Source: a virus (taxonomy: Duplodnaviria > Heunggongvirae > Uroviricota > Caudoviricetes). From it: DNA of 22,547 nt. Made by a program: the position numbers and the translations under genes. The stretch is taken from the IMG/VR virus record IMGVR_UViG_2648501787_000004, positions 1 through 22,547 of that record; one strand, written 5' to 3'. The notes beneath the pieces were generated by a model. That model was given only the letters and a program-made list of their open reading frames with translations. It was not told the DNA's origin and did no database searches. Below, in pieces: positions 140 through 18,370 of the stretch. The stretch's first letter is position 1, and the number at the start of each line of letters is the position of its first letter.

Positions 140-3100
140 TCAACTGATACTGATACCTGCTGTTGATTTCTTCATCACCACAACCAGTAAATCGCTGATA
201 CTTGCTGTGGGATACCAGCCATTTACCAGCCATGCTGACACAGAAAATTCCAGCGTCATGTGACCGTGACCGGCAGGCATATCAATAACGCCACTGTAAA
301 TCAGCGTATTATCCAGCGCAGTACGGTTATAAATTTCAGCACCGTTTTTCCGCACTATCAGACGGCATGAGGAGTAAATATCAGTATGATTTCGCTCATG
401 CTTAGCGCCGCTGAATGCCACCGCCGGAATAACAATCTGTCGGTCAAACGGCTGATCGTCATAAATCCTGACGGTAATGGTCCCTGATGGCCACCGTTCC
501 GGTGCTCGGGAGTCCCGGGGGAAAGCTTTACCCACTGTTTTAACGAGATCGCCTTCAATCTGGTTCGCGGACAGTTTTCCCAGAACCCGGCAGTTCTTGT
601 TAATCGTGACGTTGTTGAGCGTCCCGGCGTTCGCATTCACGTTACCGCTGATATCCGCATTTCTCGCCGTCAGTCGCCCGTCCGGTGTCAGGGAAAATGC
701 CGGAGGATTGCCACCACTGGTAATGGTGGGGGCCGTCAGGCGTTTCAGGAACACGTCATTCATGAATATCTGATCACCCTGCGCCACAAACATCGGCGTT
801 TCATTTCCGTTTGCCGGGTCAATAAACGCGATACGGTTAGCGGCAACCAGGAACTGGCTCAGTTTACCTTCCTCCGTGTCCTCCATGCTGAGGCCAATAC
901 CCGCGACATAATGTTTGCCGTCTTTGGTCTGCTCAATTTTGACGCCCCACATGGCATTCCATTTATCGTTGGCATCTTTCCACTCTTTCGAAAACTCCTC
1001 CAGTTTGCTGGCGTTATCCTCCGTCAACTCGACTTTTTCCAGCAGCTCTTTACCGAGATGGGATTCGGTTATCTGGCCTTTGAAAAAATCCAGGTAACCT
1101 TCGGCATCATCGCTCGCCCGACCGACAGCCTCCACAAATGCCGATTTGCCAACGGTGTTCACACTGCGGATGTAAAAATAATAATCATGGCCCGGTTTGA
1201 TATTGATACTGGCAGCTATCCAGTACAGCGCCGTGCCAAGATAGCGGGCTGTAGTTTCAACCTGCCTGATATCCGCAATCCGCTTTTCCGAGAACCAGAA
1301 CTCAAACTGTACCGTCGGATCATAAACGGCAAGATGGGGCGTGGCGGTTATCTGAAAATAGCCCGGCGTCAGCTCAATCCGCGACGGCGCTGCCGGTGCG
1401 GCAATCCGGAACGATACCGATGCAGGATCGCCCTGCTGCCCCCAGGCATTTGCCGCCCGGACTGTCAGCCTGTAGCTTCCCAGCGCCAGCTGCCTGAAGC
1501 GGTATGTGGTTTCCGTCGTCCGGGCCGTGCTGACCAGCCGCTCACTGCCGTCATCCGCTGCCACGGTCAGGCGAAGCATAAAGCTCACACCCTTCACCAC
1601 CTTCGGCGTATCCCAGCGCGCCAGCACCTGATATTCCCCGCTGTCTGCGGTGACTTCTGCGGTCAGGTGCTGCACCGCTGGCGGCGTGACACCATTCACC
1701 GTGCCACTCTGTTCGCCGTCAAAGTGCGCCCCGTTATCCACGATGGCCTCTTTTTCCGGCACATGCTGCACGGCGGTGATGGCATACGTGCCGTCGTCGT
1801 TCTCACGGATACTCACGCAGCGGAACAGTCGCTGGCGCAGCGTCGGCAGCTTCAGCCCCCATACGCTGTATTCAGCAACACCGTCAGGAACACGGCTCAC
1901 TTTTACCTTCACGCCGTCGGTGACGGACTGAACCTCCACGCTGACCGGATTGCCACTTCCGTCAACCAGGCTTATCAGCGTGGTACCGGAGGATGGCAGC
2001 GTGATTTCACGGTCGAGCGTCAGCGTCCGGGTCTGGCTGTTCACCGCCAGCACACGACCACCGATGCTGATACCGGCATAGTCATCATCACAGATTTCAA
2101 TAACATCGCCCGGCACATGGCGAAGCCCTTCTGCGCCCACGCTGAAATCCACGGTCTGCGTTTCCAGCAGTTCCGTTTTAATCAGCCACAGCCCGGCGCG
2201 GTGTGCCTGCCCCCGACTGGTACAACCAAAGGCATCCATCTTCGTGACATTACGACCGTAACGGGCAATGGCCTGCGTATCCTCAACAAGCTCTGTCGCC
2301 GTCTCCCAGCCGTTATCCGGGTCAATCCAGTTCACCTCAACGGCATTATGGCGATCCTTCAGGGCGCTGAAACTGTAGCGGAACGGCGCGCCATCATCCG
2401 GCATCACCACATTACTGCGGTTATAGGTCCACACCTTATCCGATGGCCGGTCCTGCACGAACGTCAGCGTCTGCCCGTTCCATACCGGCATACAGCGCAT
2501 CGCCGAACAGAAATCACTGAGCACATCCCACGCCTTGCGCTGTGTGGTCAGCCAGGCATTACAGGTGATGCGCGGCTCCGTGCTGCCAAAGCCGTCCGGC
2601 ACCGACTGGTCGCAGTAGTGGCCGATAACATACAGCGCCCATTTATCCACATCTGCCGCACCAAGACGTTTCCCCATGCCGTAGCGCGGGTGGGTCAGCA
2701 TATCCCACAGACACCAGGCCATGTTGTTGCTGTATGCCGGTTTAAACGTTCCGTCCCAGATACCGCTGTATTGCCGCGTCTGCGGGTTATAATTCGACGG
2801 CACCTGCAGAATACGCCCGCGCAGATGATAATTACGGCTCACCTGCTGGCTGCCGAACTGCTCCGAGTCCACCTGCACGCCGACCAGTGCCGTGTTCGGG
2901 TAGCACTGTTTCACATCGATGATTTCGGTGTATGACGACCAGAGCGTTTTGTTCTGCAGCTGGTCTGTGGTGCTGTCCGGCGTCATCCTGCGCATCCGGA
3001 TATTGAACGGGCGCGGAGGCAGGTTATCCACCACCACCGAGGCCAGATACTGCGAGGTGGTTTTGCCCTTAATGGTGATGTCTTTTTCCGTCACCCAGCC

Positions 3101-3529
3101 ACGCTGTATCTGAACCAGCAGGCGAACTTCCGACGGACTCCTGTCTCCCTTTGAGGTGGTTTCCACCAGTGCCTGTACACCGAAGGTAAAGCGCAGACGG
3201 TCGATGTTTGCCGACGTGATGGTGCGGGTGATCGGCGTGTCATATTTCACTTCCGTACCCAGCACCGTCTCGGAGCCGGAGGATTCAAACCCCTCCGGCG
3301 GAGTCTGCTCCTGCTCACCTGCCCGGAACACCACCGTGACACCGGAGATGTTGGTATTCCCCTCACTGTCCAGCACCGGCGTACTGTTCAGCAGCACGCT
3401 TTTTAAGCCATCCACCGGACCTTCAATCGGCCCTTCGCTGATGGCATCAATCACACTCAGCAACTGCGTGGACTTCAGGTTGTCCTTCGCTTCGCGCGGG
3501 GTATGCCCCTTACTGCTGCCTTTACCCAT
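140..3529 (-). CDS. J: Tail tip / host specificity protein J (central tail fibre)
   Basis: 1129-aa ORF, same size class as lambda J (~1130 aa); position after I in the lambda order; C-terminal region recognisably lambda-J-like by recall; ATG preceded by GAGGAA. Confidence 0.93.
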
Positions 3530-3551
3530 TCCTCACGCTCCATAAACGACA

Positions 3552-3571
3552 AAACCGCCCGCAGGCGGTTT
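3552..3571. promoter_or_regulatory. Conserved hairpin in the I-J intergenic region (AAACCGCC-cgca-GGCGGTTT)
   Basis: Perfect 8-bp inverted repeat with 4-nt loop; identical copy at 18395-18414. On the minus strand it is followed by a moderately T-rich tract, so it could act as an attenuator or RNA stability element; function not established. Confidence 0.3.
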
Positions 3572-3589
3572 CACATAAAACATTTTGCA

Positions 3590-4237
3590 TCAGCGACCAA
3601 TCACCACAACCTGACCACCGTCCCCTTCGTCTGCCGTGCTGATCTCCTGAGAAACCACCCGCGACCCCACACGCATTTCACCGTACAGAACAGGCAAAAC
3701 ATTGCCCTGAGCAACCATGTTATCCAGTGAGGAGAAATAGGTGTTCTGTTTGCCGTTATCTGTACTGGCTGCCGTGGGCGTCCTGGCTTTCGGTGCCAGC
3801 ATCTGCGCCACACCGCCCAGGATCATACTGGCCCCTGCCGCATACATGCCCGATACAGCCGCGGCACCCAGCCAGCCCACAGGGTTCCACCATGCCACCG
3901 CAATCAACGCCGCCCCCAGCACCACCTGAAATACACCGCCACTTTTAGCTCCCGCCAGACGCGGCACGATATGGATCACGGCACCATTTGCCAGCGGCTC
4001 ATTAAGACGGGCAGATAATTCGGTTTCACCTGCATCACGCCCGGCAATGCGCACCTGATACCAGCCGTCATTCAGCTTCTGACGAAACGCCGGGAGCTGT
4101 GTGGCCAGCGCCCGGATGGCTTCGGCCCCCGTTTTCACACGAAGGTCGATGCGGCGGCCAAATCGTTGCAAATCCCCGTAAAGGCAGATGCGTGCCATGC
4201 CCGGTGACGCCAGAGGGAGTGTGTGCGTCGCTGCCAT
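3590..4237 (-). CDS. I: Tail assembly protein I
   Basis: 215-aa ORF; N terminus MAATHTLPLASPGMARICLYGDLQRFGRRIDL... and C terminus ...NGKQNTYFSSLDNMVAQGNVLPVLYGEMRVGSRVVSQEISTADEGDGGQVVVIGR match my recollection of lambda I; overlaps the 3' end of K as in lambda. Confidence 0.9.
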   Translation of the reverse strand: MAATHTLPLASPGMARICLYGDLQRFGRRIDLRVKTGAEAIRALATQLPAFRQKLNDGWYQVRIAGRDAGETELSARLNEPLANGAVIHIVPRLAGAKSGGVFQVVLGAALIAVAWWNPVGWLGAAAVSGMYAAGASMILGGVAQMLAPKARTPTAASTDNGKQNTYFSSLDNMVAQGNVLPVLYGEMRVGSRVVSQEISTADEGDGGQVVVIGR

Positions 4238-5590: not shown

Positions 5591-5920
5591 CTATGCCACG
5601 ACCTGTTCAAAATCTGCCGTTATGGTTACCCACAACGCCCCCACGCTTGCCGACCATTTACGACAAACCACCCTGATCGGCTTCCAGTCATAAGGTGGCG
5701 TCCACTGAAATGCGCGGACGCCGCCGTGCCGTTCCAGAAAAGCTTTTAAAGATGGGTGTTCACATTTACGAACACGTATCGTCACGCTGTAAGTCGACAA
5801 CTGGTTATTCAGTCCCGCCGCACGACGCTGTTCATAACCATCGCCCAGCTTCACTGTCACCACTTTCGGCTCTGATACCACATTCATATCCGGGCGCACT
5901 TTCCAGTGAAACGTCTCCAT
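5591..5920 (-). CDS. M: Tail tip protein M
   Basis: 109 aa beginning METFHWKV...GDGY.QR...TYSV...WTPPY.W..I.V.C.KWS, matching lambda M by recall; its start codon overlaps the H stop by 1 nt. Confidence 0.9.
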   Translation of the reverse strand: METFHWKVRPDMNVVSEPKVVTVKLGDGYEQRRAAGLNNQLSTYSVTIRVRKCEHPSLKAFLERHGGVRAFQWTPPYDWKPIRVVCRKWSASVGALWVTITADFEQVVA

Positions 5921-8900
5921 TACCGATATGCTCCACTTAACCGACCACCATCACGGGCCTGCTGTTGCATAAAGTCCGCTGCCGCTTTTTTCCCAAGGTC
6001 ATAAACCACCTTCAGGGCAGCCGGACCTATCTGCCCGTTCGTGCCATCGTTATTGATCTCGATGTTGTACTGCGGGGCAAACATCGCCATACCTGAACCA
6101 CCAATATCCGCCACAACCCCCAGCTTACCGTCAGCACCACGACGCAGTGGCAGAATGGCTTCAGGTCCAGCTTCCCCCATCACACCCGCGCCTTTTGCAA
6201 AAGCAAAAAACGTCGGACGGTTAACCACCGTGCCACTGTAGCGACTCAAATCAGCAGACTGATAAACACCGCCATCCGCATTTGGTGTCACACTGGCAGC
6301 TGCTGCACTCCCCCAGCCAAACGCCGAACCAATCCCCTTCACTGCCTGCATCATGACCATCTGCGACATGATTTTTGCCAGATCAGAAAGGAGCGAGGCG
6401 GTAAAAGATCTGAAGTTCAGTTTTCCGGTGGTACAGAACGTCGCCAGTGCATTACCTGCACTGTTAAATGCCGCTGTAAACATCTGCTCAGCGGTACCTG
6501 CTGCGTTATCCGCACTCTCTGTAAAATTCTGAAACGCCCGCATGGCACCGTTTTTCCAGTCTGCCTGCATCAGTTCCTGTTCCTGCCAGTAGCGTCTGTT
6601 TTCGTTCAGTTGCCGGTTAAGGCTGTCTGTCAGCATCTGCTCAGCATTCCGGTATTCATCTGTGCCGTATGTTCCTTTCTGTTTACTGTCACGCTCCAGT
6701 TGCTCCATCTGCTGCTGATATTTTTGCTGCAGGCTGAACTGTGTCTGGTACCGCTGACGCTGCTTATCTCCCATTCCTGTTGTGGCGATATCCAGGTCAT
6801 GTTGCTGACGCAGAGCCCGTTCCTCTTCCGCCAGCTGGCTGGCAAGCTGAATGGATTTTTTCTTCAGGTCATTCAGCGCCGTCTGCTTCTGCAGCTCCTG
6901 CTGTTTTGCATCCAGCAGCGTCAGTGCCTGAATCAGCTCATCCTTATGCGCCAGCACGCTTTTTTCATCTGCTGTCAGCTTTTTACCCGCCAGGTCACTG
7001 ATACGCTGCTGCAGGGCCAGAAGCTGCTTATGCGCCTCTGTCATTTTTTCCGTGGTCAGTCCCGCGGACTGTCTGGCGGCGGCGATCTGCCCCTCCACCT
7101 GCGCCTGCTGCTGACTGTACTGCAACAGCAACCGGGTGGCTTCATCATTGCGGTTTTCAGATGTTTTTTTCTTAATGGCTTTCTCGTAACGTTCATTTTC
7201 ACGTTGTATCGCCGCATCCCTGACAGCCTGATCGGCGTACTGCATGGCATTAATACGCGCAATTTCACGCTGATGTCGTGCTGCTTCCGTTTCATTCATC
7301 CGGTTCAGTGCAGCATTTTCAGCATTACGGCGTTTCTGTTGCTCCTGATAATTCCGCTCTGCCTGCTCTTTTGCATCCTGCAAATCCTTCTGGCGTTTTT
7401 TCTCCTGAAGATCGTTAAGACGCTGCTGATCGTATTCAACCTGAGAAGATGATGCCGTCCAGGGGAGTCTTTTCGCCCGCGACACTTTCTCCTGTAAAGC
7501 GGCAATCTGTTCATCCAGCGAGTCTTCACGACCAATATTCATGGCCGCATCCCAGAAACGACTCCATAAATCAGACAGATACTTCAGCGTACTGCCCAGC
7601 GCATTGAGGTTATTATCAATATCCGCAGTACGCCGACCGGTTTCCTCTGCCAGTGCAGACATGGCTATCCGTGCCGCATCACTGGACCGCCCCTGATCCC
7701 CAAGGACGCGTATCTGCTCAAGCTGAGTGGCAGTAAGAAAATGCAGCTCATTGTCCAGAGCCTTCGCGGCATTTACAGGATCATCCTTCAGCCGCTTAAA
7801 CTGATTTATGGTATCGCTGACCGACTGGCCAACCGATCGCTCCATCTTTGCGGCAGCTCTCGCCACCATACCGATATCGTTTCCACGAAATGCACCACTC
7901 CCCACCACCTGAGCCAGCGCACCGGCTGCAGCATGTTGCGTGATACCATTCCCGGAAATAGCACGACTGAGCGTCCACAGCTGCCCGGCAGTGACTCCGG
8001 CATAATGCCCCGTCAGTGACAGCTGGCGGTTAAATTCTTCCCCCTCCTTCTGACCGTCATACCAGGCTTTACCCAGACCATAGACGGCCGCGGCAATACC
8101 GCCAATAACCCCGCCCAGCATCATGCCTTTCGGTGACATCAATGTGTCTATCCACCCGGCACGGTTAGCCAGCGTTATTCCGGATCCCCTCAGCGCACCT
8201 AAATTTCCGCGGGCCAGTTCACCTATCAGAACGCCTATCTCCTGACGGGCCGCTGCACTTTTCAGACCCAGCGAATGCGTGGCTTTTCCTGCCTGCTCCA
8301 TTTTGCGGATATACACTTCTGCAGCACTGCTTACCCCCAGCTGGGCAGCCTTAGCACGAAGCAACTCAGAAGAAGAAAGATTCTGGCGGGTTGCCTGCTC
8401 TTTAAGCTGACGGATAAACGCCACTTTCTGTCGGGTAGCCTCTTCCTCAGCCTGTGTAAGAACACGGGTTTTCGCCGTAACCTCAGAAATCAGCGCCAGA
8501 TAATCCTGCTGACCAATCCCGCCACTGTTTCTGGCCTGTCGGATCTGCTGCTGAATACGCTGTAATTCCTGCAGCCCCGCACTGGCCTGTTTCACACTGT
8601 CAATCTGACGATAAAACGCAGCAGCCGCTTTATCCTGAGCCTCCGCCAGAGCCATGGCCTGCGCCTGTTCCTCGCGCATTTTCTGGCTCAGCGCCTCCAT
8701 GCGCTGGCGGGTTTTCTCCACCTCGCGGGCCATGCGTTCATGAGCCTGTGCGTTCTTCTCCACCGTCTGCGCATGGACGGATGCGGCTGTTGCAGCCGAA
8801 GAAGCCGCCTGCGTTGTCTGCCGGGCGGCCTGAGTCTGACGCTCCATAAAACGCTGCATACGGGCAGAAGACCGTTCTGCATCGCTGGCTGCACCATTCA

Positions 8901-8985
8901 GAAGGTTTTTGATACGGGGAATTTCATTTTTAAACTCTGCCGCATCAATCCCCAAATCAATGACCAGGTTGGCTATCTGGTCCAT
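5920..8985 (-). CDS. H: Tail tape measure protein H
   Basis: Track ORF 5920-9015 (1031 aa); the probable start is the internal Met (MDQIANLVIDLGIDAAEFK, cf. lambda MAEPVGDLVVDLSLDAARF); C terminus ...INNDGTNGQIGPAALKVVYD...ARDGGRLSGAYR is lambda-H-like; long Q/E/R/A-rich coiled-coil centre typical of tape measure proteins. Confidence 0.88.
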   Translation of the reverse strand: MDQIANLVIDLGIDAAEFKNEIPRIKNLLNGAASDAERSSARMQRFMERQTQAARQTTQAASSAATAASVHAQTVEKNAQAHERMAREVEKTRQRMEALSQKMREEQAQAMALAEAQDKAAAAFYRQIDSVKQASAGLQELQRIQQQIRQARNSGGIGQQDYLALISEVTAKTRVLTQAEEEATRQKVAFIRQLKEQATRQNLSSSELLRAKAAQLGVSSAAEVYIRKMEQAGKATHSLGLKSAAARQEIGVLIGELARGNLGALRGSGITLANRAGWIDTLMSPKGMMLGGVIGGIAAAVYGLGKAWYDGQKEGEEFNRQLSLTGHYAGVTAGQLWTLSRAISGNGITQHAAAGALAQVVGSGAFRGNDIGMVARAAAKMERSVGQSVSDTINQFKRLKDDPVNAAKALDNELHFLTATQLEQIRVLGDQGRSSDAARIAMSALAEETGRRTADIDNNLNALGSTLKYLSDLWSRFWDAAMNIGREDSLDEQIAALQEKVSRAKRLPWTASSSQVEYDQQRLNDLQEKKRQKDLQDAKEQAERNYQEQQKRRNAENAALNRMNETEAARHQREIARINAMQYADQAVRDAAIQRENERYEKAIKKKTSENRNDEATRLLLQYSQQQAQVEGQIAAARQSAGLTTEKMTEAHKQLLALQQRISDLAGKKLTADEKSVLAHKDELIQALTLLDAKQQELQKQTALNDLKKKSIQLASQLAEEERALRQQHDLDIATTGMGDKQRQRYQTQFSLQQKYQQQMEQLERDSKQKGTYGTDEYRNAEQMLTDSLNRQLNENRRYWQEQELMQADWKNGAMRAFQNFTESADNAAGTAEQMFTAAFNSAGNALATFCTTGKLNFRSFTASLLSDLAKIMSQMVMMQAVKGIGSAFGWGSAAAASVTPNADGGVYQSADLSRYSGTVVNRPTFFAFAKGAGVMGEAGPEAILPLRRGADGKLGVVADIGGSGMAMFAPQYNIEINNDGTNGQIGPAALKVVYDLGKKAAADFMQQQARDGGRLSGAYR

Positions 8986-9319
8986 AACGCACACCTCCGG
9001 AAATACCTTCCCCAAGATGCATCAGTTCTTCGTCCGTTCGCTCCGGTATCCCGTTCTCTTCCGGTAAAAGGCTGAAATCAGCCACCGCAGCATCACTGCT
9101 GCCGGACACCATTCTCACGATCAATGCCTTCAGCGAGGCAAACTGCGCATCCATCCACACATCACTGAAGCTCTGCATCCGGAAATAATCGCCCCACTCC
9201 CCAAGCTCAGTGGCCGACATTTCCGACAGCATCCGCCGCCAGTCTGCCCGCCGGAACTCCCGGGCAAGCCGCATGACAAACTGCATTTCCCGCGTCAGGA
9301 CTTTTCCGGCGTCAGCACC
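8957..9319 (-). CDS. T: T segment of the tail assembly chaperone G-T fusion (reached by -1 frameshift from G)
   Basis: The -1 frame relative to G is open from 9319 (just after an in-frame TGA at 9320-9322) to 8957, overlaps the last 7 codons of G, and ends inside the start of H; classic G/T arrangement upstream of the tape measure gene. The stand-alone ATG at 9286 is probably not used. Confidence 0.7.
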   Translation of the reverse strand, partial: GADAGKVLTREMQFVMRLAREFRRADWRRMLSEMSATELGEWGDYFRMQSFSDVWMDAQFASLKALIVRMVSGSSDAAVADFSLLPEENGIPERTDEELMHLGEGISGGVRYGPDSQPGH

Positions 9320-9684
9320 TCATGCTCCAAATCCCCGGCATTCTCAATGGCTCCCATACCGCTCAGCGACAGAACCATCTCCGCCCCCGCACCCAGGGCA
9401 TCATACGACCATGTTGTAATTACGGATGCGCAAAGCGTCTCAACATCCTGAGACTGTTCCGCATTCCACAGTGAGCGGGAAACCAGCCAGGCATTGATAT
9501 CCATCCCCATCCGCAGAAAAGCAATCTGTCGTTCAGCCTCCGGCAGTTCTCCCTCTTCGGCATCAAACTTTGCCGTTCGCTGCTGAACAAACGCCAGATA
9601 TTCAATTCTCTGCAGCCCGGACAGCTCACTGAGCACCACGGACTGCTTTTCATAATTAAACGTGCCCTGTTTCAGAAACATCAT
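9295..9684 (-). CDS. G: Tail assembly chaperone G
   Basis: Track ORF 9295-9723; the probable start is MMFLKQGTFNYEKQSVVLSELSGLQRIEYLA (cf. lambda G MFLK...LSELSALQRIEHLA) at ATG 9684, with GGTGGAG 5 nt upstream; position between V and T/H. Confidence 0.85.
   Translation of the reverse strand: MMFLKQGTFNYEKQSVVLSELSGLQRIEYLAFVQQRTAKFDAEEGELPEAERQIAFLRMGMDINAWLVSRSLWNAEQSQDVETLCASVITTWSYDALGAGAEMVLSLSGMGAIENAGDLEHEVLTPEKS
9301..9307 (-). promoter_or_regulatory. Candidate -1 slippery site for the G-T frameshift (G GAA AAG in the G frame)
   Basis: Only 7 G codons overlap the open -1 frame (9298-9319). Within them, GAA AAG (zero frame) can re-pair as GGA AAA after a -1 slip; lambda uses G GGA AAG. 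The heptamer is non-canonical at one position, so the assignment is tentative. Confidence 0.4.
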
Positions 9685-9696
9685 GTTCTCCACCTG

Positions 9697-9720
9697 CAAA
9701 AAAGCCCCGGATAACCGGGG
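9697..9720 (-). terminator. Intrinsic terminator / attenuator between V and G
   Basis: Minus strand: CCCCGG-ttat-CCGGGG stem-loop (9705-9720) followed by C TTTTTT G (9698-9703), located in the gap between the V stop (9742) and the G RBS. Confidence 0.5.
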
Positions 9721-9741
9721 CAAATGATGAGTATCGTCCTG

Positions 9742-10485
9742 TTAACCTGCGGCGCTGACAGTCACCGTAGCCACTGCCACAAAATCGCCGTCAGAAGTCA
9801 TGCCCACAATGCTGACACTGCCCTGCTTCACGCCTTTCACCGTGGCCACAAGCCCGTTCAGGGTCACCGTGGCAGTCTGTGGATCTGTCGAATGCACACT
9901 GATCGCTTTGTCACTGGCTCCGTCAGGTTTTACTGTAAAGGTCAGCGTGGTGGTTGCTCCCACATTGACACTGGCGGATGCCGGTGCCACCGTCAGCCCG
10001 GTAACGCCCACAGTTTGAGTGCCCTCCTCTGCCAGATATGGACGCCCCACACCGCTGATTTTCACGGTGCGGGTCATCACGTCTTTTGAGGCAATGGTTT
10101 TACCCAGTGAACTCAGCCAGCCACGGAAAACATCAACAGTGCCGTTGGGATATTTGATACGAAACGCGCAGACTTCACCGGAGTCGAACAACTGAACCAG
10201 TTTTTTCTGCCCGCTGTCACCCGGACGCCAGGCCAGCGTCGCCGAAGTATCACCGACGGATTTCTGCCCCTGGGTTGTCGTTTTCCAGTCTGCATCTTCA
10301 TCATCGAGATAAGTGTCATCTTCTGCATCAGCGGTCATTTCGCCAGGTTGCAGATCCTTCACCATCGCAAGACGCAGCCAGTCAGTGTCCGACAGAGGAT
10401 TCGCAAACGCATCGCCGTTGCCGGTATACATCCAGAACGTCGTCCCCGCACCTTTCGTCTTTGCCAGTGGATTTGGTGTGGTCAT
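9742..10485 (-). CDS. V: Major tail tube protein V with C-terminal Ig-like (Big_2-type) domain
   Basis: Track ORF 9742-10560; the probable start is MTTPNPLAKTKGAGTTFW (ATG 10485-10483) with AAGGAGG upstream (revcomp of 10491-10497); strong lambda V similarity (KGAGTT.W.Y.G.GD..ANPLSD.DW.RLA.VKDL.PGE...DDEDADW...GQGQKS.GDTS.TLAW.PG..G...NGTVDVFRGW.SS.GK). Confidence 0.9.
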   Translation of the reverse strand: MTTPNPLAKTKGAGTTFWMYTGNGDAFANPLSDTDWLRLAMVKDLQPGEMTADAEDDTYLDDEDADWKTTTQGQKSVGDTSATLAWRPGDSGQKKLVQLFDSGEVCAFRIKYPNGTVDVFRGWLSSLGKTIASKDVMTRTVKISGVGRPYLAEEGTQTVGVTGLTVAPASASVNVGATTTLTFTVKPDGASDKAISVHSTDPQTATVTLNGLVATVKGVKQGSVSIVGMTSDGDFVAVATVTVSAAG

Positions 10486-12173: not shown

Positions 12174-14132
12174 TTACGCCGTACATTTCACCAGACCGCG
12201 GTGATCAACTGGCGCGACACCGGCGTCAATACGCACTTTCGTTGTCACGCCATCCACACTGAAGCCCTCCATCTGATCAATATATGGCGTATCCACACCG
12301 TTGAGATAAGCCACTTCAATCGTATCGGAGCCTTTTGACGCAGCCAGGTAGAAGGTGGTCTGGCTGTTATCATCAAGACGAGGCTCTGCAATAACGGTCG
12401 CAAAATCTTTCACCGGGTTAATAATACCGGCGTTAATGTCAGCCCCCTTGACACTTGAGGAGCGAATGACCTGGTTAGCAACAGACTCCATCGCCGTCGG
12501 TACCAGTACGAACGCAGGACGAATATTCAGATGACGCTCCCCCTCTTTCTGAACGCGCATCAACTGGCGGGCTTTATCCAGCGATGCCACGTCCATTGCA
12601 GCGCTCTCCAGTACGTTTGCATGTTTCGCTTTATCGAACAGACTTACATTATCTGTGGAGATTTTCGGGTTAGACGTCAGAATGGCATAAACCAGATCGG
12701 CAATAGTGGATTTCGCCGCACGGCCCAGCTTCATCGGGACATCGGTCAGCATATTCAGATCATCATTGATAATGGCCTGACGGGTGATACTGAACAGCTC
12801 GCCATAGGTCGCCAGTGCAATAGTGGCCTGTTTATCTCCGGTGGTGACGTATTTATATTCCGCCCCTTCACGCACCTGACGCAGAGCACTGAAGCCCCCC
12901 ATACCCACACGATGGGCAATTTTAAAATCAGACAACTGACCTTTCCGCGTCCACTGTTCATAGGTTTCAGGGGCATCTTCCCAGCCCTGCAGAATGGCTT
13001 TGTTCGCAACATCCAGCAGAATATTACCGAAGTCAGACGTACTGTGTGTGAACGCCGCACCGACCATCTGCATCGGGTTATAACTGGAAATCCCAATACC
13101 CCGTTCAGTCAGTGACATACGGGCATATTCACGCAGGGTCATCCCGTTGTAGACATTATCACGTTCGGTTTTTTCAAATCCGGCACGCGCCATCAGCGCC
13201 TGGCGAATCCCGTCCCCCACAAAATTACCGTTACCGGCATAAATATGAGCCGGGGTATTTTTATTGGATGGCGTGGACTCGCGCCCCATCTCGTTCAACA
13301 GCTTTTCGCGGGCCTGCTCCAGCGAACATTCAGGATCGGCAAGACACTGAGCCTGCAGCGTCTGATAACGCCCGCCAAACATGGCAAACAGATCATTAAT
13401 ACCGTTTACACGCGCTTTTTGCTCTGCCAGTACCTGCGCACGGATGCTGTTTTCATCCACCACGGGTGCTGCTGCCTGCACTGGCGTCCGGGAGGCTGCA
13501 GGTTCATCATCCTGTACGCGTGGAGCACTGTTGCGTGGCGGAGTAATCATGTTTCGAATGGATTCCGGCATCTTTTTAAATTCCTCTGTACGTTTTGACT
13601 GAATACATGCCATTGCCTTAACGGCTGGCGTCACCTGATCAGCAAATCCATGTGCCAGACATTCGGCACCGGACATCCAGGTCTCATCCGCCAGCATGGC
13701 AGCAATTTCATCGGTGGTTTTCCCGGTTTTCTGTGCATAAGCGGGTAACAGAACCGCCTCAACCTTATCGAGCAGGTCGGCATAGGTGCGCATGTCCTCC
13801 GCATCACCGCCCGTAAAGCCAAATGGTTTATGAATCATCATGAAGGTGTTTTCCGGCATAATGACCGGGTTTCCCACCATCGCAATGACCGACGCCATTG
13901 ACGCCGCCACACCGTCGACATAAACGGTAATGGACGCACCATGTGTTTTCAGTGCATTAAAAATGGCGATGCCTTCAAAGACATCGCCACCCGGTGAATT
14001 GATATGGAGATTAATGTGGGTGATATCGCCCAGTGCATTCAGATCACTGATAAACTGCTTCGCTGTAACACCCCAGAAACCAATCTCGTCATAAATATAA
14101 ATATCCGCGTCACTCTGGTGACCAGCCTGCAT
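12174..14132 (-). CDS. Prohead protease / scaffold / major capsid fusion protein (copy 1)
   Basis: Track ORF 12174-14393 extends into the portal gene; the likely start is MQAGHQSDADIYIYDEIG (ATG 14132-14130), 14 nt after the portal stop. N-terminal ClpP/S49-like protease region (HINLHINSPGGDVFEG...VDGVAASMASV), C-terminal region with capsid-like character; ~652 aa. Confidence 0.85.
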   Translation of the reverse strand: MQAGHQSDADIYIYDEIGFWGVTAKQFISDLNALGDITHINLHINSPGGDVFEGIAIFNALKTHGASITVYVDGVAASMASVIAMVGNPVIMPENTFMMIHKPFGFTGGDAEDMRTYADLLDKVEAVLLPAYAQKTGKTTDEIAAMLADETWMSGAECLAHGFADQVTPAVKAMACIQSKRTEEFKKMPESIRNMITPPRNSAPRVQDDEPAASRTPVQAAAPVVDENSIRAQVLAEQKARVNGINDLFAMFGGRYQTLQAQCLADPECSLEQAREKLLNEMGRESTPSNKNTPAHIYAGNGNFVGDGIRQALMARAGFEKTERDNVYNGMTLREYARMSLTERGIGISSYNPMQMVGAAFTHSTSDFGNILLDVANKAILQGWEDAPETYEQWTRKGQLSDFKIAHRVGMGGFSALRQVREGAEYKYVTTGDKQATIALATYGELFSITRQAIINDDLNMLTDVPMKLGRAAKSTIADLVYAILTSNPKISTDNVSLFDKAKHANVLESAAMDVASLDKARQLMRVQKEGERHLNIRPAFVLVPTAMESVANQVIRSSSVKGADINAGIINPVKDFATVIAEPRLDDNSQTTFYLAASKGSDTIEVAYLNGVDTPYIDQMEGFSVDGVTTKVRIDAGVAPVDHRGLVKCTA

Positions 14133-14145
14133 CCTGAACCAGGAA

Positions 14146-15654
14146 TTATTCTTCGGACTGGTCGTCGGTGTGCTGCGGCTCCTGTCGTTTCGTTGCGGCA
14201 CTGCTGCCTCCTTTATCACTGGCCGGATCGGTATCAAATACCAGATCCAGCTTGCGGTTTTCATCAATTTCGGCCTTGCGCCGACGTTTGACATCATCCG
14301 GATTACGACCACCAGCACGTACCCAGTCTGATTCTGTCGCCGCTCCACCACGAATCTGGATTTTCCAGGCCTCAGCCTCCTTAACAGGGTCAATCCACGG
14401 CATCACCGGTCCGGAATACACCGCGGTATACAGTGAAGAACGGTCAAGATCGCGGGGTAGCCTGATAACACCGGATGCCACAGCCTGTTTCAGCCAGGCA
14501 CGATACATCGGGCGGGTGACGGCACCAATAAACCAGTCCTGCAGGATCAGGTAGCCATCTGTGGATTCAACCAGCTCCTGACGCTGGGCGCTGTAAGTGC
14601 CGTTATAGTTGCGTGCCGTACTGGAAAAACTCAGACGACTGCCCGCCGCCACGGCACGCAACTGACCATTACGAAAAGTTTCAAGGTTAGGATTGGGACG
14701 ATCCGACTTCACCATTCCGATTTCTTCGCCGGGTTTCAGATCGTCGTAAATAATGCCTGGCTGAATGGTAAGCTCGCGTTCATTCTCCTTGCTGCCATTA
14801 CCATCCGGTTCATAGCTCTGCCCGTCGCCTTTCCGGATGTACATCCCCAGAGCAGCGGCGACCCTTGCTGCAGTCAGCTCAGAATCTTCATACTCTTTCA
14901 GGGCACTGAGGCGGATCAGCACACCGGACAACAAAGACGTCCCGCGCATCTGGTGCAGACGGCGAACAAATTTAAGATGCAGCATTCGCTCTGCATCCAC
15001 TTCTTTGGTTTCCATCTGCCGCCAGGATACGGGACGACTTTTATACACCAGATATTTTTCGGGACGCCCCCAGTCATCAACAAACACGCCCTGATTCAGC
15101 CTGTTGCTCTCATCACTGGTCATGGGAATAAAGTCTGGCTCGAGCGCCTCCAGCCAGAAATGAACACCGGCAGAAGGCGTCAGGTTGTTTATGCGCCCGG
15201 AAACCATCTGGGCAAACACCTCACCATCGCGCAGCCAGGTACGCAACATCAGACGTTCCAGCATCGGACGGGTAAACTGCCCGGTGACTTCCGGGCTGAC
15301 AGACCATTCACTCCATCGGGTGCGTATCTCCGCTGCCAGATCACGGGCAATGGCCCCATTGCGTAATACCGGATGTGGCTCGACAATAATCCCGTTTTTC
15401 CCCACCACCCGTTCTTCCAGCTTGTCAAATACACCAATAACCAGATCGTGGTTGTTATCAAGGTAACGGGCCTGCTCACGTAACGACACGGCCCCGTACT
15501 GGCTTAACTGGTCGGCAGTTCGGTTTTCCCGCCGGGCTTTGTGTGTCCGCGTCGTTTTTACGGCCTCATAAGCCTGGATCACCGCACGGGAACGCAGCCT
15601 TGCCGCTTTCCATCCTGGTGAAAAAACGCCAATCACATCATCAAGAATTGCCAT
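14146..15654 (-). CDS. Portal protein
   Basis: Track ORF 14146-15726; the likely start is MAILDDVIGVF at ATG 15654-15652, overlapping the W stop by 1 nt (TGATG); ~500 aa, acidic C-terminal tail; position between W and the capsid gene. Confidence 0.85.
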   Translation of the reverse strand: MAILDDVIGVFSPGWKAARLRSRAVIQAYEAVKTTRTHKARRENRTADQLSQYGAVSLREQARYLDNNHDLVIGVFDKLEERVVGKNGIIVEPHPVLRNGAIARDLAAEIRTRWSEWSVSPEVTGQFTRPMLERLMLRTWLRDGEVFAQMVSGRINNLTPSAGVHFWLEALEPDFIPMTSDESNRLNQGVFVDDWGRPEKYLVYKSRPVSWRQMETKEVDAERMLHLKFVRRLHQMRGTSLLSGVLIRLSALKEYEDSELTAARVAAALGMYIRKGDGQSYEPDGNGSKENERELTIQPGIIYDDLKPGEEIGMVKSDRPNPNLETFRNGQLRAVAAGSRLSFSSTARNYNGTYSAQRQELVESTDGYLILQDWFIGAVTRPMYRAWLKQAVASGVIRLPRDLDRSSLYTAVYSGPVMPWIDPVKEAEAWKIQIRGGAATESDWVRAGGRNPDDVKRRRKAEIDENRKLDLVFDTDPASDKGGSSAATKRQEPQHTDDQSEE

Positions 15655-15872
15655 CAGAACCTCGCCAGCCGGTACCCGGGATGCCCCCGTCGTCGTGTAA
15701 TCAGAGCCGCAAGGCGGCGCTCCCACTCCTGCCGTCCCTGCCGGATCTCAGATAAGTTTTCCATGGTCATCTGCTGACCATTAAAGGTGACGGATTTTCC
15801 GTCCAGCACCGCCATTTCAGCTTCCGTATAACGCTGAATCATGGCTTCGATATCATTCTGGTTCATAACCAT
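15654..15872 (-). CDS. W: Head-tail joining / head completion protein, gpW-like
   Basis: 72 aa (or 70 from Met3); C-terminal RRRGHPGY resembles the lambda W C terminus (RRRGPAGFYV); placed between terminase large subunit and portal as in lambda. Confidence 0.6.
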   Translation of the reverse strand: MVMNQNDIEAMIQRYTEAEMAVLDGKSVTFNGQQMTMENLSEIRQGRQEWERRLAALITRRRGHPGYRLARF

Positions 15873-16975
15873 CCTCCGGAAGTCAGCCAGGGGTTAACAT
15901 CGTCAGTTACTGTTTTCTTCCGTTTTTGTTTTTTAACAGGCGTGGATACCGGTTCCGGTGAGGGTGACGGTTTGGTACTGTCCGGGACACACTCCAGCCA
16001 GGTTTCCCGGCTCGCCCATTCCGGTGCATCCGGCCAGCGGATCTTTTCGTATCCATGCAGAATGACCAGAGCCTCGGCATACACCATCAGGTCAAAAGCT
16101 TCGTTGGCACCGCGACCCGGCTTACTCCATTTCCCGTCACTGCTCCGCTCTTCATACGTCAGTTCGTCGTAAAACCAGCTCCCCAGCCAGTCAGGGAAAT
16201 GCACATAGCCGGGACCTGGAGAGTCACGCCATAACGCGTTATTCACCCGGTCTTTCAGGGCATCCGTCTGAAGAAGCCAGAGCGGCACATCACCTGCGGC
16301 CTGCGCCCGTCGGCCCGTTCGTCCGGTGTTATCAGGGAATGTACGGGTGATCAGTTTTGCGCGCCGGATGCTGTCGCCCTTAAACAAGTAAATACGTTTA
16401 CCAAGGCCATCACGACGGCAACGACGCCAGAATTTATAGGCATTATCAGTGACCCCGTCTTCACCGCCGGAATCCACCGCCATTGCCATCAGTCGCATTT
16501 GTTGAGAAGGATCGGAGGCCAGCGGCCAGCTTTTATGAAAAACATCCGTCAGCAGGACATCCCAGTCTTCCGGATAGCTGGCCGGATCAATTCGCTGGCT
16601 CTCCCCGTCGCTGTCACCGCGCAATGACTGCGTGATGTTGTAACGATCAATAATCCAGCGTTCGCCACGGCTGCCATAGCCCGTTACCTGAACCACAAAA
16701 CGGCGATGACGTCCCGCCTGCACATCAACTGTCGCCACCAGGAAATTAACGCCATCCGGCACACTGCGGGAAGGAACTGGCTCTGCCCGCTGCTCAAGCA
16801 GTTCACTTTTTCGTTGCTCCATGCTGGCACGGGGAAGATAAGGTAATCCCCAGTCGGTATTGATAACCGTCTTGAGTGTTTCTTCACTTCCGGTTGTCTC
16901 GTATTCCTGTTCTGCAGTAAGCAGTTTGTAAACGAGTTGCGAGAGTGTCTGGTAAGCAGCTGCCGGACCCTCCAT
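15863..16975 (-). pseudogene. A: Terminase large subunit, C-terminal (nuclease) domain only; N-terminal ATPase domain absent
   Basis: 370-aa ORF resembling roughly the C-terminal half of lambda gpA (e.g. VATVDVQ..., WDSKKRRNEALDCFVYA-like region ...GANEAFDLMVYAEAL). Upstream in frame there are only 11 unrelated codons before a stop (17009-17011), and the sequence above 16980 is AT-rich non-coding DNA. Confidence 0.75.
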
Positions 16976-16979
16976 CCAG

Positions 16980-17440
16980 GAAGAAGTAAATAAAAGGTAA
17001 CTAAATGATTATAAGGTACTATTGAGTTATGCCCCCTACAACATAGTCCCAGATTTAGTACCTGCTTAAGCGATAAAAAAGCCAAAAAGGAAGCAATATT
17101 AATTATTGCCGCTATGCATGATCACAATGACAAATCAGAGGCGGAATTCCGCTCTCGGAACTCACATATGAGAAACGATATTTCTTCCACCGATACCCTT
17201 TATTTGGGTATCGCGAGTAAGCCCCAAAATCTGGGTGTTACTCTTACTACCCAAACTACGGGTAGTTTCCGTAGTTTCATAGTCGAGTTGCAGATCTGCA
17301 ACTCGCCACCAGTTGCTAAGTGCATTTTTGCACTTTCGATAATATCAACCAGTTACCGCCGTAAGTGCTCCGGCTTCCTCCACTGGTAAGTATTTTTCGC
17401 GCTCTCCCTCCGTTGTTGAGAACGGCGACGGTATGCCAGC
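16980..17440. other. AT-rich, palindrome-rich non-coding segment replacing the middle of the terminase large subunit gene
   Basis: Visibly AT-rich compared with flanking genes; contains the perfect 12-bp palindrome GCGGAATTCCGC (17141-17152), hairpin CGATACCC-n7-GGGTATCG (17191-17213), inverted repeat AAACTACGG-n7-CCGTAGTTT (~17252-17276) and a perfect 20-bp palindrome GAGTTGCAGATCTGCAACTC (17285-17304). No ORF with recognisable similarity. Confidence 0.6.
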
Positions 17441-17640
17441 AACTCAAGAACTCTGGTTCGTATGTTGCGCATATCAACGCCGTTAAGCTCAATACCGTCA
17501 CGGCGCATCACCTCAGCCACCACACGCGCGTAATTTTCAGCGGTGACTGTATCCGGCTGCGCGGCCTGTTCGTCAGCCAACTGGCTGATTCCACCAGCAC
17601 AGCGGATTAATCGCAGTATTTCAGATTCGGTCATTATCAT
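17353..17640 (-). pseudogene. Short ORF translationally coupled to the small terminase gene; probably the N-terminal remnant of the large terminase gene
   Basis: Its ATG overlaps the Nu1-like stop by 4 nt (17637-17640), the position where the large terminase gene normally starts; the last ~30 codons are Arg/Gln-rich and run into the AT-rich segment, suggesting read-through into non-native sequence. Homology to the gpA N terminus is weak. Confidence 0.35.
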
Positions 17641-18122
17641 GCCTGTTTTGCGACCTCATTCACTACGTCATTTTTTACCATCCGGCTGATAATCTGATTA
17701 CGCAAATCGTCAATAATTGACTGCACTCTGTTTACTGCCATCGGTTTAAGCCCGGCATCACGTGCCAGAATATTGGGGAGTTTTGCCAGTTCCTCGCTTA
17801 CGATTTCCCCCCATATAGCCATCTCTTTTCGCACATCATCGGCGGGTATGAGTTGCGCCGTTTCCTGTTCGAACTTGAGGCGCTCACGTTCGGACTGATA
17901 CCAGGCCTTACGGTCATGTGGCTCCATTTCTTCCAGTGATGCCGGAACGGGAAGATCAAGAAAACAGGTCAGAATGTCAGTCACCCGATAGAGTTTTAGC
18001 TTGTCATGCCCTCCGGCTGGCTGGATGTTTTTCAGCCTTGCCGCCGCAGTCTGACGACATATTCCCGCTATCGCCGCCAGTTGATTAATGTTCAGCATCA
18101 GATTTTTCAGTTCTCGATCCAT
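17637..18122 (-). CDS. Terminase small subunit, Nu1-like
   Basis: Track ORF 17637-18209; the likely start is MDRELKNLMLNINQLAAIAGICRQTAAARL (ATG 18122-18120, GGAG 7 nt upstream). N-terminal helix-turn-helix followed by a charged coiled region (ERERLKFEQETAQL), laid out like lambda Nu1; first gene after a cos-like region. Confidence 0.65.
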   Translation of the reverse strand: MDRELKNLMLNINQLAAIAGICRQTAAARLKNIQPAGGHDKLKLYRVTDILTCFLDLPVPASLEEMEPHDRKAWYQSERERLKFEQETAQLIPADDVRKEMAIWGEIVSEELAKLPNILARDAGLKPMAVNRVQSIIDDLRNQIISRMVKNDVVNEVAKQA

Positions 18123-18289: not shown

Positions 18290-18370
18290 ACTAGCCTTTT
18301 TCCGCGCCGCTCCCGCCTCGCGGCAGGCCACCTCACCGGGAGGACCCACCCAAAAAAGGCGACTGTCACT
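18290..18370. promoter_or_regulatory. Candidate cos site (cosQ/cosN-like GC-rich element)
   Basis: Minus strand reads GGGTCCTCCCGGTGAGGTGGCCTGCCGCGAGGCGGGAGCGGCGCGG; the GGGTCCT..CCGGTGA stretch resembles my recollection of the lambda right-end flank (GGGTCCTTTCCGGTGATCC), and the element sits ~170-250 bp upstream of the Nu1-like start. The exact nick positions cannot be assigned. Confidence 0.4.

What the first reader, a model, noticed from the sequence alone, without database searches (positions are those of the whole stretch)
9295..9322. G-T programmed -1 frameshift appears to use a variant slippery sequence
T is in the -1 frame relative to G, and the overlap in which the shift must occur is only seven codons (9298-9319). 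That stretch lacks the canonical lambda GGGAAAG heptamer. The best candidate is CCG GAA AAG (9301-9309), which gives G GAA AAG, a one-position variant. This suggests either lower frameshift efficiency or a different slippage mechanism.
Basis: partly seen in the sequence, partly recalled or inferred. Interest (0 to 1): 0.45.

Follow-up and report, generated by a model that had tools for sequence, protein, structure and literature searches.

The report
Variant slip site for G-T frameshift
This prophage almost certainly makes its tail-assembly fusion protein GT by a -1 ribosomal frameshift at G_GAA_AAG, a conserved one-base variant of phage lambda's G_GGA_AAG that biochemists have used as a poorly slipping control; it is a modest variation on a well-known mechanism.

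Summary
On the minus strand, G (9681-9295, Pfam Phage_TAC_2) is followed by T in the -1 frame (open 9319-8957, Pfam Phage_tail_T). The two frames overlap by 22 nt. That overlap has no X_XXY_YYZ heptamer, only CCG GAA AAG, which gives G_GAA_AAG at 9307-9301.

The site aligns exactly with lambda's G_GGA_AAG. More distant Serratia and Symbiopectobacterium relatives have ACG CCG GGA AAG at the same place. Every sampled E. coli and Salmonella relative (G 52-100% identical, including Gifsy-1 and the phages Ayreon and mEp460) keeps CCGGAAAAGYCCTGA, although the flanks diverge. In four lineages the overlap shrinks to 16 nt around this block.

Best explanation: tRNA-Lys slips from AAG to AAA, and tRNA-Glu re-pairs from GAA to GGA with a middle G·U pair. 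This heptamer was the "less slippery" control in published in vitro work.

There is no conserved downstream structure. An SD-like element (GAGGTG, 9321-9316) lies 6-17 nt upstream in 13 of 15 variant lineages and in 0 of 5 canonical-heptamer relatives, so it may compensate. That link is inferred.

Neither the fusion product nor the frameshift efficiency has been measured.

Verdict: a new variant of a known kind, of moderate interest.

The parts
9295..9681 (-). Gene G, the tail assembly chaperone. The probable start is ATG 9681 (MFLK...). An alternative ATG lies at 9684. The stop is TGA at 9297-9295.
   Evidence: Pfam PF06894 Phage_TAC_2, E = 1.8e-39. PGAP annotates the same 128-aa gpG in RefSeq E. 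coli.
8957..9319 (-). The T reading frame, -1 relative to G. It is open from 9319 (just after the TGA at 9322-9320) to the stop TGA at 8959-8957. Database records annotate only 9286-8957, starting from an ATG that is not conserved.
   Evidence: The conceptual GT fusion matches Pfam PF06223 Phage_tail_T, E = 2e-14. Frames are shown. T-frame residues V-L-x-x-E-x-x-F upstream of any conserved start align with lambda's post-shift V-F-D-G-E-L-S-F.
9301..9307 (-). The proposed slippery heptamer G_GAA_AAG. In the 0 frame GAA is the P-site codon and AAG the A-site codon. In the -1 frame these become GGA and AAA. Base 9301 is read twice, so the fusion is join(9681..9301, 9301..8957) on the minus strand and reads ...LTPEK|VLTREM...
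   Evidence: The position is homologous to lambda G_GGA_AAG and to Serratia/Symbiopectobacterium G_GGA_AAG. It is invariant in all sampled clade members.
9295..9309 (-). An invariant 15-nt island, CCGGAAAAG[T/C]CCTGA. It holds the E-site codon CCG, the heptamer, one more G codon, and the G stop.
   Evidence: An anchored comparison of 14 diverged lineages shows this as the only long invariant block between variable flanks. It is present once in each of 267 loci. Of 87 full-length G cluster representatives, 86 end in PEK[S/P/F].
9316..9321 (-). An SD-like element, GAGGTG. [quoted passage not shown] It is a candidate 5' stimulator, and this role is inferred.
   Evidence: The duplex with the 16S 3' end is -9.2 kcal/mol. 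It meets the published SD criterion of Sharma et al. 2014, as do 13 of 15 variant lineages against 0 of 5 canonical-heptamer relatives, with a background of 0.198.
9320..9322 (-). TGA in the T frame. It sets the upstream limit of the region where the shift can occur.
9284..9286 (-). The first ATG in the T frame, used by annotators as the T start. It is not conserved: relatives have CAA, CGG, ATT or CTT here.
   Evidence: annotations. (relatives).
5920..8985 (-). Gene H, the tape measure protein, whose assembly G and GT serve. Its start ATG at 8985 overlaps the end of T by 29 nt.
   Evidence: Pfam TMP_2, TMP_4 and Tape_meas_lam_C.
9742..10485 (-). Gene V, the major tail tube protein, immediately upstream. 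It fixes the V-G-T-H gene order.
   Evidence: Pfam Phage_TTP_12, E = 1.5e-66. Relatives annotate a 744-nt CDS.

Best explanation
G and T form the lambda-type tail assembly chaperone pair. Most ribosomes translate G and stop at 9297-9295.

**Proposed shift (inferred).** A minority of ribosomes shift -1 when peptidyl-tRNA-Glu sits on GAA (9306-9304) and Lys-tRNA-Lys sits on AAG (9303-9301).
- tRNA-Lys (mnm5s2UUU) re-pairs perfectly with AAA.
- tRNA-Glu re-pairs with GGA, keeping two Watson-Crick pairs and a G·U pair at the middle position.
- Reading then continues with GUC into T and gives a 241-aa GT fusion (...LTPEK-VLTREM...). As in lambda, this fusion should link the tape measure protein H to the tail tube protein V.

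**Origin of the site.** It is a derived G-to-A change at heptamer position 3 of the ancestral G_GGA_AAG. It is fixed and maintained in a large E. coli and Salmonella prophage clade.

**Efficiency.** The heptamer is intrinsically weak. I infer that the SD-like GAGGTG 8-11 nt upstream pairs with 16S rRNA in the elongating ribosome and raises the shift to a useful few-percent-or-less level.

**What is shown and what is inferred.**
- Shown: the frame geometry, the homology of the site to lambda's, its strict conservation, and the association with an SD-like element.
- Inferred: that slippage occurs here, which tRNAs move, and the stimulator role.

**My probabilities.** About 0.8 that GT is made by a -1 shift on GAA_AAG. 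About 0.55 that P-site re-pairing to GGA contributes. About 0.45 that the SD-like element stimulates.
For: **Gene identity and order.** V-G-T-H order and Pfam matches.

**Geometry.**
- T is -1 to G. The overlap is 22 nt here and only 16 nt in L175, L179, L186 and L188. In every case it contains GGAAAAG.

**Homology of the site.**
- Lambda has GCG GGA AAG, with the fusion ..AGK|VFDGE.
- This window has CCG GAA AAG, with the fusion ..PEK|VLTRE.
- Outgroups at 35% identity have ACG CCG GGA AAG TCT TAG.

**Conservation.**
- CCGGAAAAGYCCTGA is invariant across lineages whose G proteins are 52-100% identical, while the roughly 30 nt on either side vary.
- 86 of 87 G cluster representatives end in PEK[S/P/F].
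- The synonymous third base of CCG, which is heptamer position 1, never varies, although the neighbouring codon's third base does. This favours a heptamer over a bare A_AAG.

**Viability.** Isolated phages (Ayreon, mEp460, cdtI, Tritos) carry the identical site. In lambda, GT and its ratio to G are crucial for tail assembly (PMC5009743).

**Prior annotation.** The Gifsy-1 record already labels its T homolog as made by translational frameshifting, and it has the same site.

**Precedent.**
- A_AA.G is the best tetramer in E. coli (PMC4066793).
- X_XX = G_GA heptamers and NNA_AAG sites are used elsewhere (PMC5009743).

**SD-like element.**
- 13 of 15 variant lineages have one, against 0 of 5 canonical relatives. 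The background is 0.198 of positions.
- Codon-shuffle p values are 0.017-0.43 for variant families and 0.31-0.95 for canonical relatives. By my own unverified hand calculation (Fisher's method, not run as a tool call), the nine variant-family values combine to about 0.003.
Against: - **No direct evidence.** No GT product and no efficiency measurement exist for this site.
- **Weak heptamer in vitro.** In a reconstituted E. coli system AUG GAA AAG gave mainly 0-frame product at all EF-G concentrations. The second-position mismatch was described as unfavourable (PMC6924986).
- **Tetramers need help.** In E. coli reporters, tetramer motifs alone were barely above background and needed a strong stimulator (PMC4066793).
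- **No downstream structure.** None is significant or conserved. Z-scores run from -1.2 to +1.8, and the alignment fold is -8.98 kcal/mol with a covariation term of -0.31.
- **The SD-like enrichment is only suggestive.** The linker is Glu/Gly-rich, the lineages are phylogenetically related, two lineages lack the element, and the window's own codon-shuffle p is 0.225.
- **The heptamer is not avoided elsewhere.** G_GAA_AAG also occurs in phase inside J, at 1289-1283.
- **This copy may be defective.** The prophage in this window looks rearranged.
Confidence: 0.75

Rival explanations
1. Only tRNA-Lys slips, as in a hexanucleotide or tetramer site of the GAA_AAG / A_AAG type. The P-site tRNA-Glu contributes nothing by re-pairing. 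The G at heptamer position 1 is conserved for other reasons. The protein product would be identical.
For: - A_AA.G is by far the best tetramer in E. coli.
- NNA_AAG sites such as A_CGA_AAG and G_CGA_AAG work in Bacillus cdd and in IS1222.
- A related IMG/VR clade seems to use a bare A_AAA next to a stop codon.
Against: - Not only A_AAG is invariant. The whole CCG GAA is invariant too, including the synonymous third base of CCG, in about ten diverged lineages.
- Glu is fixed in an otherwise hypervariable linker.
- Tetramers needed a strong downstream stimulator in reporters, and none is found here.
Confidence: 0.3
2. T is made as a separate protein. Ribosomes terminate at the G stop and reinitiate at ATG 9286-9284, 9 nt downstream. 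No frameshift is needed. This is how the database records annotate it.
For: - The ATG lies 9 nt after the G stop, a typical coupling distance.
- mEp460, Tritos and RefSeq PGAP annotate a 109-aa T from this ATG.
Against: - The ATG is absent in relatives, which have CAA, CGG, ATT or CTT, while the overlap and the heptamer are invariant.
- No good SD precedes it.
- T-frame residues upstream of it (V-L-x-x-E) are conserved with lambda's post-shift sequence, so they appear to be translated.
- In lambda, the G to GT ratio of about 30:1 set by the frameshift is crucial for tail assembly (PMC5009743).
Confidence: 0.1
3. There is no functional recoding here. The site is a decayed version of GGGAAAG in a defective prophage, and no GT is made.
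For: - The prophage in this window looks rearranged. The large terminase is reduced to its nuclease domain, and a second partial prophage copy lies next to it.
- The heptamer is known to be poorly slippery.
Against: - The identical site is present in isolated phages (Ayreon on K-12, mEp460, cdtI, phi458, Tritos).
- It is invariant over a deep clade, and 1848 of 5426 complete E. coli genomes carry the cassette.
- Decay would produce variation, not a 15-nt invariant island.
Confidence: 0.03
4. RNA polymerase slips on the A4 run and produces -1 mRNA, instead of the ribosome slipping.
For: A short A run is present, and the protein product would be the same.
Against: - The run is only four A's. As I recall it, known bacterial and phage transcriptional slippage sites have homopolymer runs of about 7-9 or more.
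- The conserved block extends well beyond the A run, to CCGG on one side and YCCTGA on the other.
Confidence: 0.02

Closest known systems
Phage lambda G/GT programmed -1 frameshift at G_GGA_AAG (Levin, Hendrix and Casjens 1993; Xu, Hendrix and Duda 2004, 2013, 2014, as summarised in PMC5009743)
   Same: - Homologous G and T proteins (PF06894, PF06223).
- The same V-G-T-H gene order.
- T in the -1 frame.
- The slip site at the homologous codon pair, with Lys AAG as the A-site codon and a pyrimidine 3' of it.
- No evident downstream structure.
   Different: - Heptamer position 3 is A, not G, so the P-site codon is GAA (Glu) and re-pairs with a second-position G·U instead of a wobble pair.
- G stops one codon after the site, against five codons in lambda.
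- An SD-like element lies upstream. It is absent in lambda, the Stx2a phage, CP-1639 and the Serratia-type relatives.
E. coli dnaX and IS911 -1 frameshift signals (A_AAA_AAG with an upstream SD-like stimulator)
   Same: - tRNA-Lys AAG-to-AAA slippage in the A site.
- An SD-like sequence within the 6-17 nt interval reported as stimulatory (PMC4066793).
   Different: - The P-site codon is not slippery in the canonical sense.
- There is no downstream stem-loop or pseudoknot.
- The expected efficiency is far lower.
Hexanucleotide or tetramer NNA_AAG / A_AAG sites (IS1222 G_CGA_AAG, Bacillus cdd A_CGA_AAG, IS3 C_CAA_AAG-type) and G_GAN_NNN heptamers of insect flaviviruses, dianthoviruses, umbraviruses and mesoniviruses (PMC5009743)
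   Same: - A non-XXX P-site part combined with a fully slippery A-site codon.
- G_GA as the first three bases is a recognised intermediate class.
- PRFect's 'twofour' pattern, and its suggestion that GAA re-pairs to GGA through G:U, cover the same idea for tail chaperone genes.
   Different: - Those cases rely on strong 3' structures or are eukaryotic.
- In the literature I could search, G_GAA_AAG is not described as a natural tail chaperone slip site. It appears only as a poorly slipping in vitro control.

Membership tests
Lambda-type G/GT tail assembly chaperone frameshift cassette | Two small ORFs lie between the major tail tube gene and the tape measure gene. | tested here: met
   The order is V (9742-10485), G, T, H (5920-8985), with Pfam matches for all four.
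Lambda-type G/GT tail assembly chaperone frameshift cassette | The proteins are homologous to gpG and gpT. | tested here: met
   PF06894, E = 1.8e-39. PF06223, E = 2e-14 on the fusion. G is 36% identical to lambda G in the alignment.
Lambda-type G/GT tail assembly chaperone frameshift cassette | The downstream ORF is in the -1 frame, overlaps the end of the upstream ORF, and has no conserved start of its own. | tested here: met
   The overlap is 22 nt here and 16-43 nt in relatives. The first ATG, at 9286, is not conserved.
Lambda-type G/GT tail assembly chaperone frameshift cassette | A slippery sequence lies in the overlap at a conserved position. | tested here: met
   G_GAA_AAG sits at the position of lambda's G_GGA_AAG and is invariant in the clade.
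Lambda-type G/GT tail assembly chaperone frameshift cassette | A GT fusion protein is produced at a low percentage and is required for tail assembly. | not testable with these tools
   This needs a western blot, mass spectrometry, a reporter assay or genetics. The only indirect support is that isolated phages carry the identical site.
Canonical X_XXY_YYZ tandem slippery heptamer | Positions 1-3 are identical and positions 4-6 are identical, in the 0-frame phase X_XXY_YYZ. | tested here: not met
   Positions 1-3 are G, G, A. Positions 4-6 are AAA, in phase. No other X_XXY_YYZ exists in 9319-9298.
Z_ZZN tetramer / NNA_AAG hexanucleotide -1 sites (Sharma 2014) | A_AAG is in phase, allowing cognate A-site re-pairing. 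| tested here: met
   GAA AAG in the 0 frame.
Z_ZZN tetramer / NNA_AAG hexanucleotide -1 sites (Sharma 2014) | A strong 3' stimulator (hairpin or pseudoknot) lies 5-9 nt downstream. | tested here: not met
   No significant fold and no conserved or covarying structure. No Rfam match.
SD-stimulated bacterial -1 frameshift signal (dnaX / IS911 type) | [quoted passage not shown] | tested here: met
   GAGG at 11 nt and AGGTG at 9 nt in the window. The element is present in 13 of 15 variant lineages. Whether it stimulates was not tested.
SD-stimulated bacterial -1 frameshift signal (dnaX / IS911 type) | Mutating the SD lowers frameshifting. | not testable with these tools
   This requires a reporter assay.

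The most novel reading that the evidence does not exclude
The clade has evolved a two-part signal, and both parts are held by selection.
- One part is a deliberately weakened heptamer, G_GAA_AAG, whose P-site tRNA-Glu must accept a second-position G·U pair.
- The other part is an upstream SD-like element that restores slippage to the level needed for the G to GT ratio.

No sampled member has reverted to the one-mutation-away canonical GGGAAAG. If this reading is right, there is a natural and very common E. coli system (about a third of complete genomes) in which a heptamer regarded as essentially non-slippery in vitro supports an essential frameshift. That would let the contribution of rRNA-mRNA pairing to non-cognate P-site re-pairing be measured directly.
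Probability: 0.3. Interest if true: 0.55.

Novelty: new variant of a known kind. Interest (0 to 1): 0.4.

Why it matters
**Annotation.** Gene callers, including PGAP, annotate T in this clade as a separate gene starting at arbitrary codons. They never annotate the GT fusion, although the cassette is in 1848 of 5426 complete E. coli genomes and in Gifsy-type Salmonella prophages. Fixing the slip site gives the correct join for thousands of records.

**Mechanism.**
- The site is a natural counterpart of the "less slippery" control used in kinetic studies of reading-frame maintenance.
- It shows that a second-position G·U in the P site is tolerated by selection for a low-level essential frameshift.
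- The link between the variant heptamer and an upstream SD-like element is a cheap, testable hypothesis about how weak slip sites are tuned.

It does not change the general picture of tail chaperone frameshifting.

Tried and rejected
**Downstream stimulatory structure.**
- I folded the 141-nt region (z = -0.99).
- I folded 45- and 70-nt segments 3' of the site in 15 lineages (z from -1.2 to +1.8).
- I ran an alignment fold of 10 lineages (-8.98 kcal/mol, covariation -0.31, first long helix 29 nt downstream).
- Nothing was convincing. A weak CGCGGG...CCCGCG hairpin in the E. coli-type lineages is absent from the Salmonella-type ones.

**Rfam.** A scan of 8800-9900 at E <= 1 gave no match.

**Other slip candidates in the overlap.** GTG, CTG, ACG, CCG and TCC cannot re-pair in the -1 frame.

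**Independent T start.** The ATG at 9286 is not conserved.

**Transcriptional slippage.** The run has only four A's.

**Searches that added little.**
- The genome contigs and first viral-contig scans returned mostly near-identical copies. I obtained diversity through the look-up of encoding contigs and through divergent queries.
- The scan with the Serratia-type G found nothing.
- The lambda-type scan gave no diversity.

**Literature.**
- Searches for GGAAAAG or "GAA AAG" together with frameshift or tail terms found no description of this natural site. Two hits were only Shine-Dalgarno tables.
- Xu et al. 2004 (Mol Cell) is not held, so I could not check whether its table lists this heptamer.

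Full report
**What is in the window.**

All genes in the region run on the minus strand in the lambda tail order V, G, T, H, M, L, K, I, J.
- G is 9681-9295, with an alternative ATG at 9684. It matches Pfam Phage_TAC_2 with E = 1.8e-39.
- The G frame ends ...GAG GTG CTG ACG CCG GAA AAG TCC TGA.
- The next reading frame is -1 relative to G. It is closed by TGA at 9322-9320 and open from 9319 to a TGA at 8959-8957.
- Joined to G at the proposed site, it gives a protein that also matches Pfam Phage_tail_T with E = 2e-14.
- The two frames overlap over 9319-9298, which is 22 nt.
- The overlap contains no GGGAAAG and no other X_XXY_YYZ heptamer. It does contain, in the correct phase, G_GAA_AAG at 9307-9301.

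**Where the sequence comes from.**

- The G-T segment is 97.6-99.4% identical to Escherichia phages Ayreon, phi458, mEp460, cdtI, Tritos and others.
- It is present at 95% identity or more in 1848 of 5426 complete E. coli genomes.
- None of the phage records inspected joins G and T. RefSeq PGAP also annotates "phage tail assembly chaperone G" and "phage tail assembly protein T" as separate genes.
- The Gifsy-1 record, whose G is 55% identical, calls its T homolog [quoted passage not shown]. It has exactly ACG CCG GAA AAG TCC TGA.
- So the frameshift is already presumed for this clade, but the slip site is not named.

**Homology of the site.**

- In lambda the G frame reads GCG GGA AAG TGT, and the fusion reads ...SAGK|VFDGELSFALKLAREM.
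- Here the G frame reads CCG GAA AAG TCC, and the fusion would read ...TPEK|VLTREMQFVMRLAREF.
- The two sites align codon for codon and differ at one base.
- Relatives from Serratia and Symbiopectobacterium, only 35% identical, have ACG CCG GGA AAG TCT TAG, the canonical heptamer in the same context.
- Other members of the family use G_GGA_AAG (an Stx2a phage) or A_AAA_AAG (CP-1639).
- One IMG/VR clade ends G with GCA AAA TAG, apparently a bare A_AAA next to a stop codon.
- G_GAA_AAG is therefore a derived single-base variant of the family's usual site.

**Conservation.**

- I collected 271 loci that gave 64 distinct junction sequences.
- Every member of the E. coli and Salmonella clade keeps CCGGAAAAG[T/C]CCTGA. 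Their G proteins are 52-100% identical to this one.
- The roughly 30 nt upstream cannot be aligned between lineages, and the downstream T sequence varies at many positions.
- The 15-mer occurs once in each of 267 loci.
- Of 87 full-length G cluster representatives, 86 end in PEK followed by S, P or F, at the end of an otherwise hypervariable linker.
- In four lineages the -1 frame opens only 16 nt before the G stop, so the shift must occur within TTCGCCGGAAAAGTCC.
- The third base of CCG is synonymous in G and lies upstream of any T coding. It is always G, whereas the preceding codon varies (ACG, ACA, TCG, TCA, TTG). This fits selection on the full heptamer and not only on A_AAG.
- No sampled member has reverted to GGGAAAG, which is one mutation away.

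**Is T translated only through the shift?**

- The ATG that annotators use (9286) is replaced by CAA, CGG, ATT or CTT in relatives.
- The T-frame residues before it (V-L-x-x-E-x-x-F) match lambda's post-shift residues (V-F-D-G-E-L-S-F).
- The short overlap has no start codon.
- These residues can therefore be reached only from the G frame. This argues against a separately initiated T as the main product.

**Mechanism.**

- AAG to AAA is cognate for the single E. coli tRNA-Lys.
- A_AA.G is the most shift-prone tetramer in E. coli. In reporters, however, tetramers were barely above background without a strong stimulator and reached 5.6% with the IS3 pseudoknot (PMC4066793).
- The P-site tRNA-Glu would have to re-pair from GAA to GGA, which means a G·U pair at the middle position.
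- Exactly this sequence, AUG GAA AAG, was the "unfavorable" and "less slippery" control for G GGA AAG in a reconstituted E. coli system. It gave mainly 0-frame product (PMC6924986).
- On the other hand, heptamers whose first three bases are G_GA are a recognised intermediate class in several eukaryotic virus groups. NNA_AAG sites are used by IS1222, and one occurs incidentally in Bacillus cdd (PMC5009743).
- The PRFect authors list a "twofour" pattern among the slippery-site motifs they found in annotated phage frameshifts. Separately, they propose G:U-assisted GAA-to-GGA re-pairing for the GGGGGAA ('fivetwo') motif (PMC10885494).
- I therefore expect tandem slippage with an imperfect P-site re-pairing and a low intrinsic efficiency.

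**Stimulators.**

- *Downstream.* I found no significant or conserved structure and no Rfam match.
- *Upstream.* The window has GAGGTG at 9321-9316. Its duplex with the 16S 3' end is -9.2 kcal/mol.
  - 13 of 15 variant-heptamer lineages have such an element.
  - 0 of 5 canonical-heptamer relatives have one (lambda, the Stx2a phage, CP-1639, Serratia, Symbiopectobacterium).
  - The background rate is 0.198 of positions in the window's phage genes.
- *Composition control.* A codon-shuffle control keeps the composition of each linker.
  - It gives p = 0.017-0.43 for nine variant families. By my own unverified hand calculation (Fisher's method, not run as a tool call), these combine to about 0.003. 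The lineages are not independent.
  - It gives p = 0.31-0.95 for the canonical relatives.
- This is suggestive evidence for a compensating 5' stimulator of the dnaX or IS911 kind. It is not proof. The window's own p is 0.225, and two lineages lack the element.

**Comparison with what is known, and novelty.**

- The cassette meets every sequence-level criterion of the lambda G/GT frameshift family.
- It fails the canonical X_XXY_YYZ definition.
- It meets the A_AAG and SD-like criteria.
- It lacks the 3' structure that tetramer sites usually need.
- I could not find this heptamer described as a natural tail chaperone slip site. I also could not read Xu et al. 2004.
- I rate it a new variant of a known kind. 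It is useful for annotation, and it is a natural test case for P-site mismatch tolerance and SD stimulation. It is not a new mechanism.

**Limits.**

- No product or efficiency data exist.
- The roles assigned to the tRNAs and to the SD-like element are inferences.
- The prophage copy in this window appears rearranged. The functional argument therefore rests on identical sites in isolated phages.

Noticed in passing
window 9704-9721 (minus strand), plus the T run down to about 9698: An intrinsic-terminator-like hairpin, GCCCCGGTTATCCGGGGC followed by TTTTTT, sits between the stop of V and the start of G. The Ayreon and mEp460 records annotate it as a terminator. It could lower G/T/H expression relative to the major tail protein.
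   Followed up: partly
window 18371-19074, 19164-21077 and 21781-22542: A second, partial prophage copy lies upstream of the small terminase gene. It has a second tail assembly I gene, 88-90% identical to 3528-4185. This abuts a second ClpP-protease/capsid fusion gene (637 aa, 70-78% identical in blocks to 12174-14393). A D5-like primase/helicase ORF follows. The arrangement suggests tandem or recombined lambdoid prophages carrying a large deletion.
   Followed up: partly
window 15863-17640: The large terminase appears reduced to its nuclease domain (370-aa ORF, 15863-16975, Pfam GpA_nuclease). Small unassigned ORFs lie upstream. Matches to related phages over 15600-22547 come in three pieces that cover only 26-29% of the query. 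The prophage in this window may be defective.
   Followed up: partly
window 1283-1289 (minus strand, inside J): A second G_GAA_AAG lies in the same codon phase inside the tip attachment gene J. The heptamer is therefore not avoided in ordinary coding sequence, which fits low intrinsic slipperiness.
   Followed up: partly
loci L189-L192 (IMG/VR), end of the G homolog: A distant G clade (39-41% identical) ends ...CCA CTG GCA AAA TAG, with T in the -1 frame. The only slippery element is A_AAA immediately before the stop codon. This may be a tetramer-plus-stop frameshift site.
   Followed up: no
proteins P0032 and P0046: Two database proteins are in-frame G-T fusions created by internal deletions (...LSLSG|FVMRLAREF and ...SYDA|GKVLTREM). 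They are probably decayed prophages and say nothing about the slip site.
   Followed up: no
window 12174-14393: The head protease (ClpP-like) and the major capsid protein are encoded as one 739-aa ORF, with Pfam CLP_protease and Phage_capsid_4 in a single protein. Portal (14146-15726) and this ORF overlap by about 250 nt in the ORF list, so the true start is probably internal.
   Followed up: no
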